A DNA stretch of 51,898 nt from Candidatus Dojkabacteria bacterium (GCA_015485585.1 WFTI01000005.1:1-51898), one strand, 5' to 3'. Shown: positions 37,224 through 46,699, counted from the stretch's first letter. The notes: a model not told the origin generated them from the letters alone. A program made the numbers and translations.

Positions 37224-40200
37224 ATGGGCGAGGGAGGTTTCAAAACATTTTTATTAGGTTTTATTCGTCTTACCTTGGGATTTGTCGTACTGTTATCATT
37301 AACGGTCTCAGTTGTATACTATCTTTTCCGTTGTGAAGGAGTTTTAGGTAAATATATGGGCTACTGTTCATTCGGAGCCCAAGCTGATGTAGCTAACCTG
37401 GTCGCAAGTCGCGTAAAGGATCCTGAGAATAGTGAAGACTCTCAAGATCAGAAAAGTGGAGTAGGCGGTTTAATGTTATACGTAGTAGGAAATCTTAGCA
37501 AGAAGAGTCAAGATTGGTATAGGGAGCAATTTTACGAGGTAATAAGAGATGAGTGTGGAGCAAGTGGAGTAGTTAGGTATGATGGTGAGAGGTTGTATTG
37601 TGGTAGGGTGGAGGCTGAGTTTGATGAGGTGGAGGGGTTGTTGTATGTGGATGGTAGGGTGTTAGATTTGAGTGTTTTTTGGGATGATAGGGATTCACAG
37701 AGGTTGTATTTTGATAGGACTACGAAGGTATTGGTTATAGAGGGTGGAAACAGCGTAGATCTTTCAGCACTTGTTGATAGATATAAGGCAGGGACTGGTT
37801 TACTGCTTACTGACAACACTTTCTCTTTAGATGCCATTTTATCGGATCTTAAAGATGTGGATACCAAAGGAGCCTTCGCAGGAGATGTTTTAAAATTTGA
37901 TGGTTCTAAATGGATTCCTGCAAGTGATCAAGATACAACCTATACTGCTGGTGGTCAACTTTTATACCTTACTGGTACAACTTTCAAGATAAGAGAAGGA
38001 ACCCTAACAGACGGGAGACTATGTAGTTTTGATTCTACGTTTGGATTAGTTTGTAATACTGATTCAACAATCTTTTTGCAGACCTTAAATTTATCGGGAG
38101 ATGTATTAAGTATAAGTGATGGCAATAGTGTAACCTTTACAAACTGGGATACTGATGTGACTGATGATGTAAGAAATCTGTCAGATCTTTTAGATGTTAC
38201 CTTAAGTACGCCCTCTGCCTCTGATGTGTTAGTCTACAACGGCACTGAATGGGTTAATCAACCATTAACCTTTTTGGCTTTATCTGATACACCTTCGACC
38301 TACGGACCTGCTGGATATTTATTGCAAAGCACTGGTAGTGGCATAGCCTATGTAGATCCCTTAACGCTTGATGTAGGATATTGGAAGCGGGTAGGTACAA
38401 CTTTAAGCCCGCGTAATGCTGGAGACGATGTGGTACTTAACCCTGGTGAGACTCTTTCGATTCAAGATTTTAGTATCGGAGGTTTGATTTATGCCTCAAA
38501 CAACGGGTTACTTGTTCAAGACGCACAAAATCTGTACTGGGATGATACAAACAAACGGTTAGGTATCCGTACAAGCAATCCATTAGGAGCTTTGCATATT
38601 GCTGATAATAGTACTTATGTGGAGAAGGTTTCTGTAGCAAAAACAGTGACCTCTAACTATACCCCCTCTTTTGGGTCTGTAAAAAATATTGTTGATAGTA
38701 TATACGCCCCTGAAGGACATAGGTGGGATGATGCAAACTATGCCGTAAGGTTAGATGCTGCAAACACCTCTATACTTACAATTGATTTGGGTCAAGTCTA
38801 TGACATAGAGCGGGTAAAATTACAAGCTGATGGGAATGATGTGTATCGAGTTGAATACTCTGTAGATGGAACCACATGGAGTCTTTTATTCGAAGCAGGT
38901 ACATTAGGCGCAGGGTTACTAACACGTGATAGTGGTCCTTTAACTCCGGTAGCCGCAAGATATGTGCGAGTTTATGCAGTAGGAGGAGACGGTCTTTATT
39001 CTGTTTCTGAACTGGAGGTTCAGGCAACTGTAGCTAGATCTCAACTGTTTGTTGATAATTATAAGGTGGGTATCGGTACATTAACACCGGTGGGGAATTT
39101 ACATATAGCCGATAAAGTTTATGGTATTCATCAAAGCCTATTTTTAACTTCAAATGCTATCCGTTTCAGAAAAGACGGTATCTCTTTTTTCTCCATTGTG
39201 GGGCCTGATGATACACAGAATTACTTAACCCTTTCTTACTTCTCACGTCCTGATTACTCTGCAGATGCAAGAAGAAATATTTTGACACTTACCCCCACAG
39301 GTAATGTGGGTATAGGGACCACAACTCCTGCTAAAAAACTAGATGTTATAGGGGATGTGAAGATTACTCCTGATGGTACAGCAAGAAGTTTTTACTTCTA
39401 TAATGATGGTGGTTTTCCTGCAATTTCAGCTGATTTTGTGATACGAGTAAGACAGCGTATGGAGGTTTGGGGCAATTATGTAGATATCCGTTCAAGTGGC
39501 GGTACTCAGATGATCTATTTACCCCCAAGTGGAAACGCTTTCTTTATGCAGGGTAATGTGGGTATAGGTGTTACAAATCCTTCAGCCAAGTTACATGTTT
39601 ACGGAGGACAACCTACCTATTTGAAATTAGAGAGCAATGCTAGTGGAGGAGAAGCGTCGTTTATCTGGAAGAATTTAACTGGTGAGTCATATTTTGGACT
39701 TGCTGGAGCTACAGATCAACTATTAATCGGAGGATTAGTTAGTGCAGGAGACCTTGTTTTAAGTCACAGAACAGGGGGAAAGATAATCTTTAGTGCTGAC
39801 AGCGCTTATTCAGAAGCACATTTAACTATTAGTGAGACTGGTAATGTGGGGGTGGGGACTAGTACCCCTAATGATAAGCTTGACATAAAGGGTGGTAATT
39901 TAAGATTAACATTTACAGGGGCAGGGGACGCAAGGAAGTTGTTGTTTGTACCGACGGGGCAACACACATCCTCTAATGTTGCGGTAGGAATCATAGGGAT
40001 GAGAGCTGCAGGGGATATATTTGATCGAGCAAAGATAGAGTTTGCGCAGGTTTGGGACGGTACTTATACAGATTATGAAATAAGGTTTTTTGTTACTGAT
40101 GGGGGAGTTGCTACTAGGCGAGCAATGACAATAAATAAAGATGGTAATATTGGTATAGGTACGACTTCACCTTTTGGTATTTTAGACATTCTAAAAGATG

Positions 40201-46300: not shown

Positions 46301-46699
46301 TCTTTAAATAGTACTTTGGTATCTTCATCGTTACTTAAGGCAATAAACTTAGAAGTAGCAGGCGGTAAATTCGCTGTTGACAGCGAAGGCCAGCTTGTTT
46401 TACAAGGAGATGCAAATATATTTGGAGACCTGGTCGTAGAAGGGGTATTGAACGCAAAAGAGATAAGAACCGACAAATTGGTACTTCAACAGAATAGAGG
46501 AGTTGTTGTGATCCCTGCTGGTTCTAAGTCTATAAGGATTCAGGTTAATGATATGACACCAGATACCTTAGTTTTTGTTAATCAATACAGTGGTACCCCT
46601 GTTTTATATACAGTCAGAAGAGATACGGGTTATTTTGAGATCAACCTTGCTGAGCCTGCTTCTGCAGATATAGAGTTTGGCTGGTTTATAATATACTAA
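43307..46699 (+). CDS. Giant membrane-anchored tail-fibre-like surface protein, paralog B (beta-helix-like repeats, FN3-like insert, Peptidase_S74 module)
   Basis: 1130 aa from ATG 43307, which aligns its N-terminus with paralog A. TM helix VVLFILSFFWVVFLVWLL. G.VGIGT motifs. Gly/Asn-rich repeat run ILNGTNNGVYGQNGTILNGNYNYIYGSYGAILGGGQNRIY... FN3-like LTWDPVPGATGYRVY. S74 block FSDIRFKEDIEPI..LRGVRFVWK..IGFIAQEVKEVLPEVV..LSVDYSRLIPLLVEAIKQI. Confidence 0.8.
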   Translation: MKEVSRFGFLKNTVVLFILSFFWVVFLVWLLQDCNSPLGKYRSLCQKTESRVTNVAVGTEKKEEKKENSDRFLFFVKESIDKKGKSWLAGLLSDFLHEQCKEGGVLVFGPEGLFCRFEGIGSITVEYDEENHILTIGSTTIDLSKAFQELLWDPIAGTLEITDGNSVDLSSLRQYLTLDGNQLRLSSANSVIFDGWDTDESDDVKKFVDLEDTPSDYGTAGYLLMTDGLGQITYLDPQKLGYWDQKGDNIILRYSSKNVYLRSGEYLGVGYDPTTFGMGTVAAFNGAVGIGTTNPVASLQIEGVGGNPSLQLGDHYLNQSTIRLFSDTVFNIAYLQVGGIYSHQKGRLVVSKLGSSTDTLEWLKIYSDLTSFSGQVGIGTETPSTSLDVLDSTRIFSLSGEELVISATSLVANDSLNLTSSLGTSFNVGGQDIVTITPSGNVGIGTTNPLARLHVDNNDTNGIVVFSGDIGTNDLTPIYPDSNSSDDVFFIWNPKTASIFVGRPPASTWWDTEGLNFSYILGGEENTFYDALPWFNHYASTILNGFRNKIRGKHNFVATGEVNTINSSYSVILNGTNNGVYGQNGTILNGNYNYIYGSYGAILGGGQNRIYSYESTVLGGIGNYIGEYGAINAESYSVVLGGTYNTVKSSYSVVFGNRMALSRDADNVFVFGFSTTTPPSNEYINTPNSFLIGPYGTPIKVGIGTKAPNEMLTLAPFSNIAVELEAPTNLTATATTGGTLPAATYKFKVVATDGVGYSRISSEITCTVDGTTTNACSLTWDPVPGATGYRVYMTTPTNYTFSRYADITTNSFTLTSDPTNAYPTGSPPTIINAYKVKISSSGDSWFLGGNIGIGTTTPGQLLQVGEAGDGSAAIANSWLTFSDIRFKEDIEPIDDPVLIVKQLRGVRFVWKESQKSDIGFIAQEVKEVLPEVVREDSRGYLSVDYSRLIPLLVEAIKQISVLLEDEGVLTGSTTKWNFIDDDVLTTDYSVYINELRVGSLNSTLVSSSLLKAINLEVAGGKFAVDSEGQLVLQGDANIFGDLVVEGVLNAKEIRTDKLVLQQNRGVVVIPAGSKSIRIQVNDMTPDTLVFVNQYSGTPVLYTVRRDTGYFEINLAEPASADIEFGWFIIY

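What the first reader, a model, noticed from the sequence alone, without database searches (positions are those of the whole stretch)
37224..46699. Two paralogous giant membrane-anchored tail-fibre-like proteins bracketing rtcB and an FNR-like gene
ORFs 37224..41273 (1349 aa) and 43307..46699 (1130 aa) share one module order. First comes a single N-terminal TM helix, then a Cys-pair block (CEGVLGKYMGYC vs CNSPLGKYRSLC). Next are GNSVDLS, WDTD..DDV and TPS.YG.AGYLL blocks. Then come several copies of a G(N)VGIGT..P..L.(V/I) motif; at nucleotide level, ggtaatgtggg recurs at 39300, 39552, 39840 and 40425. Each protein ends with a phage-type Peptidase_S74 module. Each paralog also carries its own insert. 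Paralog A has a discoidin/F5-8-type-C-like segment at about 38700..39025. Paralog B has a Gly/Asn-rich beta-helix-like repeat run at about 44930..45300 and an FN3-like segment at about 45480..45690. This looks like phage tail-fibre or tailspike hardware fused to a cellular N-terminal membrane anchor and duplicated with diversified binding inserts. The organism looks like a reduced, probably host-dependent bacterium, so these are plausible host- or cell-attachment fibres. I am not aware of a characterised system with this architecture. The two genes flank rtcB and a small FNR-like reductase, so the four genes may form one unit.
Basis: partly seen in the sequence, partly recalled or inferred. 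Interest (0 to 1): 0.78.

Follow-up and report, generated by a model that had tools for sequence, protein, structure and literature searches.

The report
Membrane-anchored self-cleaving fibre adhesins in CPR bacterium
Two neighbouring genes in a tiny, probably host-dependent (CPR/Patescibacteria-type) bacterium encode long cell-surface fibres built from phage-tail-fibre parts, closest to the prey-grabbing 'MAT' fibres of the predator Bdellovibrio but anchored differently and carrying an extra end-cap, so they are plausible host-attachment devices rather than prophage leftovers.

Summary
ORFs 37224..41273 (A, 1349 aa) and 43307..46699 (B, 1130 aa) are paralogs. They share an N-terminal TM helix, a Cys block, short fibre motifs, repeated GNVGIGT..P...L loops and a Peptidase_S74 module with an intact Ser/Lys dyad. 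A carries a discoidin domain. B carries 15-residue β-roll repeats and a sub-threshold FN3-like piece.

Two corrections:
- S74 is not the end of either protein. About 165 conserved residues follow it: a linker plus a β-sandwich related to H-type lectins.
- A characterised analogue exists. A's shaft matches the solved Bdellovibrio MAT fibre Bd2133 (E 1.9e-9). However, A and B lack the MAT N-terminal domain and use a TM anchor instead.

The context is purely housekeeping, and no phage carries the anchor region or the extension. The rtcB/FNR-like "four-gene unit" is seen only in the same or a near-identical species. The recurrent neighbour is rplJ-rplL.

The same anchor–S74–cap architecture occurs in Dojkabacteria (nearest relatives), Moraniibacteriota and Saccharibacteria; a 5'-truncated Micavibrio ORF has the S74–cap part.

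Best reading: membrane-anchored, S74-assembled trimeric glycan-binding fibres for partner-cell attachment. This is a new variant of a known kind, of moderate interest.

The parts
37224..41273 (+). Fibre gene A (1349 aa), whole ORF
   Evidence: ORF list. The exact protein is in NCBI assemblies. Paralogous to B.
37248..37328 (+). A: N-terminal transmembrane anchor (about aa 9-35), no signal-peptidase-like site
   Evidence: Hydropathy segment 5-38, score 2.2. Homologues have basic N-termini ahead of the helix. The equivalent helix in B is modelled at pLDDT about 90.
37332..37601 (+). A: membrane-proximal Cys block (C37, C48, C111, C126)
   Evidence: Cys positions are conserved in A, B, P0002 and P0004, and partly in P0003.
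37671..38633 (+). A: N-terminal fibre-motif region (GNSVDLS at 175 and 300, WDTD at 308, DTPSTYGPAGYLL at 355, first capping loop at 446)
   Evidence: Motif map. Weak PHROG tail-fibre hits at 309-349 and 419-475. No solved relative.
38721..38999 (+). A: discoidin / F5_F8_type_C carbohydrate-binding insert (aa 500-592)
   Evidence: Pfam PF00754 E 7.6e-10 and PF22633 E 2.1e-8. It lies in the one long (169 aa) gap between capping loops.
39057..40523 (+). A: shaft of six roughly 80-100-aa modules, each ending in a (G)N-V-G-I/V-G-T-x-x-P-x-x-x-L capping loop (aa 612-1100)
   Evidence: DNA repeat family D1 with spacing 252-303 nt. Motif positions. phmmer hit to Bdellovibrio MAT fibre Bd2133, 8OND, E 1.9e-9. 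Phage tail-fibre hits at 23-30% identity. Module number differs from the ortholog P0002.
40524..40775 (+). A: Peptidase_S74 intramolecular chaperone / autoprotease (aa 1101-1184), with predicted cleavage Ser1101 and Lys1106
   Evidence: Pfam 59.5 bits. S, D, R and K are invariant in the 12-sequence alignment. Foldseek hit to MyRF ICA 7DC3 at E 2.5e-6, plus T5 4UW8 and K1F 3GW6.
40776..41069 (+). A: post-S74 β-rich linker (aa 1185-1282)
   Evidence: Conserved between A, B and relatives. pLDDT below 50 in the monomer model.
41070..41270 (+). A: terminal β-sandwich cap (aa 1283-1349), related to H-type lectin domains
   Evidence: pLDDT 80-92. The profile finds 1675 representative proteins, mostly with the module at the extreme C-terminus. 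17 of 47 homologous copies hit Pfam H_lectin.
43307..46699 (+). Fibre gene B (1130 aa from ATG 43307; alternative TTG 43271 gives 1142 aa)
   Evidence: ORF list. Both start versions exist in databases. A TTGACA-17-TACACT match at 43271-43299 overlaps the TTG.
43325..43411 (+). B: N-terminal transmembrane anchor (aa 7-35)
   Evidence: Hydropathy score 2.76. Modelled as a helix at 6-32, pLDDT about 90.
43406..43651 (+). B: Cys block (C34, C45, C100, C115)
43754..44686 (+). B: fibre-motif region and first three capping-loop modules (GNSVDLS at 164, WDTD at 196, DTPSDYGTAGYLL at 212; loops at 288, 376, 442)
44924..45307 (+). B: Gly/Asn-rich β-roll insert, six to seven 15-residue repeats (aa 540-667)
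   Evidence: Repeat register. phmmer hits to UspA1 head 3NTN/3PR7 (E 0.002-0.004) and IRI protein 3ULT (1.4e-4).
45479..45706 (+). B: FN3-like segment (aa about 725-800), sub-threshold
   Evidence: Pfam fn3 E 0.024, below cut-off. The best PDB hits are FN3 domains at E >= 0.02, with halves in swapped order.
45950..46198 (+). B: Peptidase_S74 module (aa 882-964), Ser882 and Lys887
   Evidence: Pfam 57.8 bits. Motif.
46199..46696 (+). B: post-S74 linker plus terminal β-sandwich cap (aa 965-1130)
   Evidence: 45% identical to A over this stretch. Top hit of the extension profile, 197 bits.

Best explanation
A and B are type-II (N-in, C-out) membrane-anchored, homotrimeric cell-surface fibres of a CPR/Patescibacteria-type bacterium.

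Proposed mechanism:
1. Each chain is exported with its single N-terminal helix left in the cytoplasmic membrane. (Inferred.)
2. The C-terminal region emerges last. It contains the S74 intramolecular chaperone and, after it, a linker and a small lectin-like β-sandwich. This region trimerises and nucleates C-to-N folding of the intertwined β-helical shaft, whose modules are delimited by GNVGIGT..P...L capping loops. (Inferred from the family.)
3. The Ser/Lys dyad (A: S1101/K1106; B: S882/K887) then cuts the chain. This leaves a mature anchored fibre of about 1060 aa (A) or 845 aa (B) and severs a 248-aa C-terminal fragment. (Dyad conservation is shown; cleavage is inferred.)
4. The fibres project beyond the envelope and bind surface glycans of a partner or host cell. 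Binding would use module-specific inserts: discoidin in A, a TAA-head-like β-roll and an FN3-like piece in B, and the tip exposed by cleavage. (Inferred.)

The two paralogs, and the strain-level variation in shaft length, would provide different specificities and reach.

Shown here: domain content, paralogy, dyad conservation, homology to MAT and phage fibres, non-phage context, and recurrence in CPR genomes. Inferred only: topology, trimerisation, cleavage, surface exposure and host binding.
For: - S74 above the Pfam threshold in both proteins, and discoidin in A.
- The S-D-x-R-x-K residues are invariant across 12 family members.
- The S74 model matches MyRF ICA (E 2.5e-6), T5 pb1 with its chaperone, and the K1F IMC. 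It also gives 329 viral S74 structural matches.
- A's shaft modules match the solved MAT fibre Bd2133, 8OND, at E 1.9e-9, including three capping loops.
- In MAT protein Bd3182, S74 self-cleavage was shown; MAT proteins were also shown on the predator surface and one MAT type bound bacterial surface glycans (PMC10769870).
- B's insert resembles the UspA1 adhesin head.
- The N-terminal hydrophobic helix follows a basic N-terminus in several family members.
- The flanks are housekeeping genes only.
- The position upstream of rplJ-rplL is conserved in three divergent genomes.
- Fibre genes with the S74 module and terminal cap occur in Dojkabacteria, Moraniibacteriota, Saccharibacteria and unclassified Patescibacteria, and in a 5'-truncated Micavibrio ORF whose N-terminus is unknown. 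Two such genes occur in each of L004 and L005.
- The ortholog in a genome whose flanking proteins are about 89-99% identical (most 95-99%) has about 470 more residues of shaft modules.
Against: - There is no experimental evidence for localisation, trimerisation, cleavage or binding.
- The monomer models are low-confidence outside the TM helix, the S74 module and the terminal sandwich.
- The most conserved part of the proteins lies downstream of the predicted cleavage site. That is odd if it is merely discarded.
- The same terminal module caps many S74-less proteins (40 of 59).
- Point-substitution divergence of A and B between close strains is no higher than for housekeeping genes, so there is no clear arms-race signal.
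- The host of this organism is unknown.
- The H-lectin assignment of A's and B's own caps rests on transitive homology only.
Confidence: 0.62

Rival explanations
1. They are ordinary prophage or prophage-remnant tail fibres that happen to sit in the chromosome.
For: PHROG tail-fibre families and GenBank phage tail fibres match the shaft plus S74. NCBI names such proteins 'tail fiber domain-containing protein'.
Against: - There are no capsid, terminase, portal, tail or integrase genes in the 51.9-kb window; the flanks are MiaB, RtcB, L10, L7/L12 and similar.
- The position upstream of rplJ-rplL is conserved in divergent genomes.
- The N-terminus is a TM anchor, not a virion-attachment domain.
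- Phage identity is only 23-30% and never covers residues 1-600 or the post-S74 extension.
- None of the 80 best IMG/VR loci extends past the S74 part, and 0 of 57 viral S74 ORFs has the cap.
Confidence: 0.03
2. They are structural envelope fibrils or self-adhesins (surface-layer spacing, cell-cell or biofilm cohesion, attachment to abiotic or polysaccharide substrates) rather than host-recognition fibres.
For: The same data support a surface fibre with lectin-like modules. Nothing identifies the ligand. Substitution rates between strains are ordinary. Similar S74 proteins occur in many free-living Bacteroidota and other bacteria.
Against: The anchor-S74-cap architecture is found among CPR lineages, and the S74-cap part also in an epibiotic predator. 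The closest characterised relatives act in prey recognition. The paralogs have different binding inserts and shaft length varies between strains, which suggests specificity variation.
Confidence: 0.22
3. The functional product is the released C-terminal fragment. On this reading, S74 cleavage sheds a soluble trimer of chaperone, linker and lectin-like cap that acts at a distance (for example by marking or agglutinating target cells), and the anchored part is mainly a delivery scaffold.
For: The post-S74 region is the best-conserved part of A and B, at 45% identity. The cap is a confident, autonomous β-sandwich related to H-type lectins and tailspike C-terminal domains. The catalytic dyad is intact.
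Against: In every characterised S74 protein the released fragment is a spent chaperone (Schulz 2010 and Garcia-Doval 2015 as cited there). The cap also ends S74-less anchored proteins, where it cannot be shed. The elaborate binding inserts sit in the anchored part.
Confidence: 0.1

Closest known systems
Bdellovibrio bacteriovorus MAT (mosaic adhesive trimer) fibres, S74 subgroup (e.g. Bd3182; shaft structure Bd2133, PDB 8OND); Caulton et al. 2024, PMC10769870
   Same: - Chromosomally encoded cellular surface fibres of about 1000 aa or more.
- A shaft of repeated β-helical modules with V-G-x-G/π..P...L capping loops.
- A C-terminal S74 module with an SDxxxK dyad.
- Multiple paralogs with mosaic binding domains.
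- An organism that lives by attaching to other bacteria.
- Direct sequence match of A to Bd2133 at E 1.9e-9.
   Different: - MAT proteins have a cleavable signal peptide plus a conserved roughly 130-aa N-terminal domain. That domain is absent here (under 3 bits against 130+ bits in Bdellovibrio). A and B use an N-terminal TM helix plus a Cys block.
- S74-type MATs are described as terminating in the S74 domain (PMC10769870). Here a roughly 165-aa linker plus a lectin-like cap follows.
- The organism is a CPR bacterium, a lineage not listed in that paper.
Phage tail fibres and tailspikes with a C-terminal intramolecular chaperone (K1F endosialidase 3GW6, T5 pb1 4UW8; cyanophage and pelagiphage fibres)
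   Same: The S74 fold and catalytic motif. Shaft repeats at 23-30% identity. The short 'DV..P..GQ.L.W.G..W' and 'GNSVDLS' fibre motifs.
   Different: No virion context. A TM anchor in place of a tail-attachment domain. A post-S74 extension that is absent from all viral hits examined.
MyRF (myelin regulatory factor) ICA domain, PDB 7DC3
   Same: It is the best structural match for the S74 module (E 2.5e-6) and a sequence hit. It is a membrane protein in which S74 is internal, not terminal, and in which cleavage separates a trimer from the remainder.
   Different: MyRF is a eukaryotic transcription factor. Its TM segment lies C-terminal to the ICA domain, and the released part is the N-terminal DNA-binding trimer. 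Here the anchor is N-terminal and the C-terminal piece would be released.
Trimeric autotransporter adhesin heads (UspA1, YadA-like)
   Same: B residues 540-667 are 15-residue Gly/Asn-rich repeats with weak similarity to the UspA1 head.
   Different: There is no C-terminal β-barrel translocator. The similarity is weak (E 0.002-0.004) and Pfam YadA_head is not detected in B.
H-type lectin domain (PF09458) and C-terminal domains of tailspikes (Klebsiella K1 lyase PF24146; cyanophage Pam1 7EEA)
   Same: Homologous copies of the terminal cap hit H_lectin (17 of 47, best 7.6e-7) and K1-lyase_C (5 of 47). The profile hits the Pam1 tailspike C-terminus at E 0.009.
   Different: The cap copies of A and B do not reach significance on their own. 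In the Foldseek search made with the whole S74+extension model, the H-type lectin structures appeared only weakly (E about 0.4). The position downstream of S74 is not described in the papers searched.

Membership tests
Peptidase_S74 / intramolecular chaperone auto-processing domain proteins | Match to Pfam PF13884 above the gathering score | tested here: met
   A 59.5 bits and B 57.8 bits, cut-off 22.
Peptidase_S74 / intramolecular chaperone auto-processing domain proteins | Catalytic Ser-Lys dyad in an S-D-x-x-x-K motif | tested here: met
   A has S1101-D-I-R-W-K1106 and B has S882-D-I-R-F-K887. S, D, R and K are invariant in 12 family members.
Peptidase_S74 / intramolecular chaperone auto-processing domain proteins | Fold of solved IMC/ICA domains | tested here: met
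   Foldseek: MyRF ICA 7DC3 E 2.5e-6 (TM-target 0.61), T5 4UW8 and K1F 3GW6 weaker. The model's pLDDT is 62-83 in this part.
Peptidase_S74 / intramolecular chaperone auto-processing domain proteins | Trimerisation-dependent self-cleavage at the Ser | not testable with these tools
   Needs expression of the wild type against S1101A / S882A.
Bdellovibrio MAT fibre family | Shaft of β-helical modules with capping loops (V-G-G/N-π-x-x-P-x-x-x-L), homologous to solved MAT shafts | tested here: met
   phmmer hit to Bd2133 8OND at E 1.9e-9 over A 808-902 plus two further loops, and 8OML at 0.007. There are 7 loops in A and 5 in B. The trimeric state was not tested.
Bdellovibrio MAT fibre family | Signal peptide followed by the conserved roughly 130-aa β-rich N-terminal domain (present in all 21 MATs) | tested here: not met
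   An HMM of that domain scores 130-143 bits in Bdellovibrio L009/L012 and Moraniibacteriota L021, but 1.7 bits in A and -1.0 bits in B. A and B have an uncleaved-looking TM helix instead.
Bdellovibrio MAT fibre family | C-terminus is either S74 or an alternative adhesive tip domain | tested here: inconclusive
   A and B have both in series: S74, then a linker and a β-sandwich cap. That combination is not described for MATs.
Bdellovibrio MAT fibre family | Surface exposure and binding of prey/host envelope glycans | not testable with these tools
   No experimental data for this organism.
Phage / prophage tail fibre | Encoded within a phage structural-gene module or mobile element | tested here: not met
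   All neighbours are housekeeping genes. Synteny with rplJ-rplL holds across genomes.
Phage / prophage tail fibre | N-terminal domain that docks to a baseplate or tail | tested here: not met
   The N-terminus is a TM helix plus a Cys block. No phage hit covers residues 1-600.
Trimeric autotransporter adhesins | C-terminal YadA-type β-barrel anchor | tested here: not met
   No such Pfam hit; the C-terminus is S74 plus the cap.
H-type lectin domain (terminal cap) | Match to PF09458 | tested here: inconclusive
   A's own cap (member 1 of A4) gave no Pfam family, and B's full-length Pfam scan shows no H_lectin hit. 17 of 47 homologous copies hit, best E 7.6e-7.
Type IV pilin-like N-terminus (considered because an S74 protein with a prepilin domain, P0106, exists) | G|F-x-x-x-E prepilin cleavage motif | tested here: not met
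   Reading the N-termini: there is no Glu at +5 after any Gly-Phe in A (GGFKTFLL) or B (FGFLKNT).

The most novel reading that the evidence does not exclude
Many CPR/Patescibacteria lineages use a dedicated class of phage-derived, self-processing trimeric fibres as their host-recognition organelles. These fibres are N-terminally membrane-anchored and finished by a previously undescribed post-S74 lectin-like cap. Their mosaic inserts and shaft length would encode host range. The cap is either a second folding nucleus or a shed or retained lectin that takes part in recognition. If so, the host specificity of uncultured episymbionts could be read, and tested, from these genes. It would also mean that two unrelated groups that live attached to other bacteria (BALO predators and CPR episymbionts) both rely on related phage-tail-fibre-type S74 fibres.
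Probability: 0.3. Interest if true: 0.72.

Novelty: new variant of a known kind. Interest (0 to 1): 0.5.

Why it matters
How ultrasmall CPR/Patescibacteria recognise and hold on to their hosts is largely open. Type IV pili and unspecified 'adhesins' are the main leads so far (PMC10633639, PMC12206443).

These genes give concrete, expressible candidates with a predictable biochemistry:
- trimerisation;
- a single diagnostic self-cleavage site (S1101 in A, S882 in B);
- lectin-type modules.

There is also a characterised reference system, the Bdellovibrio MAT fibres, to copy assays from.

The post-S74 cap is found in about 1700 protein clusters. Its position downstream of an apparently active cleavage site is a small unsolved problem in fibre assembly.

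Tried and rejected
1. An indexed homology search with the extension-only profile returned nothing, not even the query proteins. This looks like a prefilter failure. The exhaustive search with the same profile found 1675 proteins.
2. An indexed search with the S74+extension profile returned only short S74-only proteins, which were no use for the extension.
3. The N-terminal model of B is low-confidence apart from the TM helix, so no fold search was run on it.
4. A's N-terminal ectodomain (aa 41-499) has no PDB sequence relative, even at E <= 10.
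5. The promoter and terminator scans over 36-48 kb are at or below the chance expectation, so no operon structure can be claimed.
6. NCBIfam has no model for A or B.
7. The prophage reading is rejected on context and on the absence of the anchor and cap from phage hits.
8. The trimeric-autotransporter reading is rejected because there is no β-barrel anchor.
9. The pilin-like N-terminus is rejected because there is no prepilin motif.
10. The functional link to rtcB and the FNR-like gene is rejected as unsupported. That adjacency occurs only in the same species or a near-identical relative (L001, L163-L165). L002 and L003 have a fibre gene next to rplJ without rtcB or FNR.
11. The organism's name could not be obtained. 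The single genome scan did not return the window's own genome. The nearest named relatives of the fibre are Dojkabacteria, at only 34-36% identity.

Full report
**Observation.**
The two ORFs exist as described: 37224..41273 (A, 1349 aa) and 43307..46699 (B, 1130 aa; an in-frame TTG at 43271 would give 1142 aa). BLASTP shows paralogy in several blocks. The last 286 residues are 45% identical (E 2e-62), a middle block is 33% identical (2e-15) and the N-terminal roughly 180 residues are 28% identical (7e-14).

Each protein starts with one strongly hydrophobic segment, A 5-38 and B 7-35. B's is modelled as a helix at 6-32 with pLDDT about 90.

The nucleotide word ggtaatgtggg occurs at exactly the four stated positions, against 0.02 expected. 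It belongs to a 48-nt repeat family with 252-303-nt spacing. That family encodes the loop (G)N-V-G-I/V-G-T-x-x-P-x-x-x-L, present 7 times in A and 5 times in B.

Pfam gives these matches:
- Peptidase_S74 in both proteins: 59.5 and 57.8 bits, cut-off 22.
- F5_F8_type_C in A at 509-592 (E 7.6e-10).
- Only a sub-threshold fn3 match in B (E 0.024).

B 540-667 is a run of 15-residue Gly/Asn-rich repeats. It has weak similarity to the UspA1 adhesin head and to an ice-recrystallisation-inhibition protein β-roll. PDB hits for the FN3-like piece are FN3 domains, but all at E >= 0.02 and with the two halves in swapped order.

**First correction: S74 is not terminal.**
The catalytic Ser lies 248 residues from the C-terminus in both proteins. 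In Bdellovibrio, Bacteroidota and phage-type S74 proteins it lies about 100-140 residues from the end. The extra roughly 165 residues are the best-conserved part of A and B.

An AlphaFold model of A 1060-1349, built on a 12-sequence alignment, gives three regions:
- the S74 part at pLDDT 62-83;
- an unresolved linker of about 100 residues;
- a confident terminal β-sandwich (A 1283-1349, pLDDT 80-92).

A profile of the extension alone finds 1675 cluster representatives at E <= 1e-3 among 1.84 billion proteins. The module lies within 5 residues of the C-terminus in 81 of 141 listed hits. Of 59 complete proteins of at least 600 aa that carry it, 19 also have S74 and 42 have an N-terminal hydrophobic segment.

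Seventeen of 47 copies hit Pfam H_lectin (best E 7.6e-7) and five hit the C-terminal domain of the Klebsiella K1 lyase tailspike. A's own copy is too divergent to hit alone. The profile weakly matches the C-terminal domain of the cyanophage Pam1 tailspike (E 0.009). In the Foldseek search with the whole S74+extension model, H-type lectin (Helix pomatia agglutinin) and R2 pyocin fibre-tip structures appeared only weakly (E > 0.2).

**Second correction: a characterised analogue exists.**
phmmer against PDB sequences matches A 808-902, plus two further capping loops, to Bd2133 (8OND, E 1.9e-9). It also matches another Bdellovibrio fibre (8OML) and the MyRF ICA domain.

Bd2133 belongs to the MAT (mosaic adhesive trimer) family of Bdellovibrio bacteriovorus. 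That family has 21 surface fibres, 13 of which end in an S74 domain with an SDxxxK motif. Self-cleavage was demonstrated for Bd3182. All 21 have a signal peptide followed by a conserved roughly 130-aa N-terminal domain, and their shafts carry capping loops V-G-G/N-π-x-x-P-x-x-x-L (PMC10769870).

The S74 part of my model matches MyRF ICA (E 2.5e-6), T5 pb1 with its chaperone, and the K1F IMC. S, D, R and K of the catalytic motif are invariant in the 12-member alignment.

The MAT N-terminal domain, however, is absent. A crude HMM of it scores 130-143 bits in Bdellovibrio and in one Moraniibacteriota protein, but under 3 bits in A, B and their nearest relatives. So A and B work like MAT fibres in shaft and chaperone but fail one defining MAT feature, and they add a cap that MATs are not described as having.

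**Context and origin.**
The window is a housekeeping stretch of a CPR-like genome. It encodes ClpB-like, RadA, Rho, AMP-phosphorylase-like, RNase J, e2b2, CCA enzyme, IleRS, thioredoxin, MiaB, RtcB, L10, L7/L12 and ATP-dependent DNA ligase. It also has an unlinked 23S rRNA that is about 830 nt too long and carries LAGLIDADG endonuclease ORFs. No phage structural or integrase gene is present.

GenBank phages match only the shaft plus S74, at 23-30% identity, and never residues 1-600 or the extension. In IMG/VR the 80 best loci all stop at the S74 part. None of 57 viral S74 ORFs carries the cap, whereas 12 ORFs in 10 cellular loci do. Those loci are:
- Dojkabacteria L003, L004 (two genes) and L005 (two genes);
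- Moraniibacteriota L021 and L038;
- Saccharibacteria L022;
- an unclassified patescibacterium, L081;
- a Micavibrio, L049 (the ORF is cut off at its 5' end, so its N-terminus is unknown);
- a Thermodesulfobacteriota genome, L018;
- an unclassified MAG, L057.

The nearest named relatives are Dojkabacteria, at 34-36% identity over the S74+extension query (about 290 aa). The MAT paper's list of MAT-like proteins in other organisms contains predators but no CPR lineage. I found no paper linking S74 fibres to Patescibacteria.

**The 'four-gene unit'.**
The order A-rtcB-FNR-B is found only in other assemblies of the same species (L163-L165) and in a close relative whose flanking proteins are about 89-99% identical (L001). 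In two more distant genomes a homologous fibre gene sits just upstream of rplJ-rplL, as B does here, without rtcB or FNR (L002, L003). The promoter and terminator scans are at chance level. I therefore treat rtcB and the FNR-like gene as neighbours in a compact genome, not as parts of the system.

**Variation.**
A's ortholog in the close relative (P0002, 1817 aa) is about 94% identical over residues 1-880 and over the last roughly 290 residues. It has about 470 additional residues of shaft modules. Substitution levels in A and B (95-98% identity) are similar to those of flanking housekeeping proteins. So the visible variation is modular, in shaft length and inserts, rather than point-mutational.

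**Mechanism proposed.**
- The N-terminal helix anchors the chain N-in, C-out. Several homologues have basic N-termini ahead of the helix.
- After export, the C-terminal S74 region trimerises and templates folding of the shaft, then cleaves at S1101 (A) or S882 (B).
- The anchored mature fibre displays its inserts and its exposed tip for glycan binding on a partner cell, as shown for MAT and phage S74 proteins.
- What the post-S74 linker and cap do is unresolved. They could be a second trimerisation nucleus, a cap that stays bound, or a shed lectin. The cap also occurs on S74-less anchored proteins, which argues that it has a role of its own.

Topology, trimerisation, cleavage, surface exposure and the ligand are all inferred, not shown.

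**Verdict.**
It needs three corrections:
- S74 is internal, not terminal.
- A characterised cellular analogue, the MAT family, exists.
- The rtcB/FNR linkage is not supported.

I class this as a new variant of a known kind and give it moderate interest (0.5).

Noticed in passing
window 4702..9150: The 23S rRNA (4702..8457) is about 830 nt longer than the bacterial model and has no 16S or 5S next to it. ORF 7186..7620 inside it is a LAGLIDADG_1 homing endonuclease (E 1.3e-16). ORF 8437..9150, overlapping the called 3' end, is a LAGLIDADG_2 endonuclease (E 6.7e-43). GC stays at about 0.52 up to about 10000. This looks like an intron-bearing rRNA, which I know (from memory, not tested here) to be a typical CPR feature.
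   Followed up: partly
L068 (Paceibacterota) and L069 (Zambryskiibacteriota), ORFs at 2032..6840 and 1357..7203: These CPR S74 fibre proteins begin with a cytoplasmic segment that, read by eye (no domain search was run), looks like a helix-turn-helix. It comes before a TM helix at residues about 100-200. The result would be a possible DNA-binding domain tethered to an extracellular self-cleaving fibre, loosely like MyRF with the topology inverted.
   Followed up: no
L001 10001..15454 versus window 37224..41273: There is a strain-level length polymorphism in fibre A. The ortholog in a close relative has about 470 extra residues, all shaft repeat modules, while both ends are about 94% identical.
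   Followed up: yes
window 36377..37192: A 271-aa ORF with a weak PgeF-like match (TIGR00726, 39 bits, far below the cut-off) lies between MiaB and fibre A. It is absent from the same position in the close relative L001.
   Followed up: partly
window 20807..26981: A VirD4/TraG-like coupling ATPase (24582..26981) lies near an unannotated 829-aa ORF (20807..23296) and small ORFs with no family match. This may be a fragment of the patescibacterial type IV secretion system.
   Followed up: no
L004 and L005 (Dojkabacteria): Each locus carries two genes encoding proteins with an S74 module and the terminal cap, tandem in L005 and on opposite strands in L004. The full-length ORFs read in each locus start with a TM helix. 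So pairs of such fibre genes recur in the nearest named lineage.
   Followed up: partly
protein P0106 (Bdellovibrionales) and P0157/P0160 (Flavobacteriaceae): S74 modules also occur fused to a prepilin-type N-terminal domain, and together with a T9SS C-terminal sorting domain (domain order not checked). Cellular S74 proteins therefore seem to use several different export or anchoring solutions.
   Followed up: no
window 15666..17177 and 19851..20837: An AMP/thymidine-phosphorylase-like gene and an e2b2 (IF-2B family) gene lie close together. From my own knowledge, not tested here, these are components of the nucleoside-salvage/RuBisCO shunt described for CPR and archaea.
   Followed up: no
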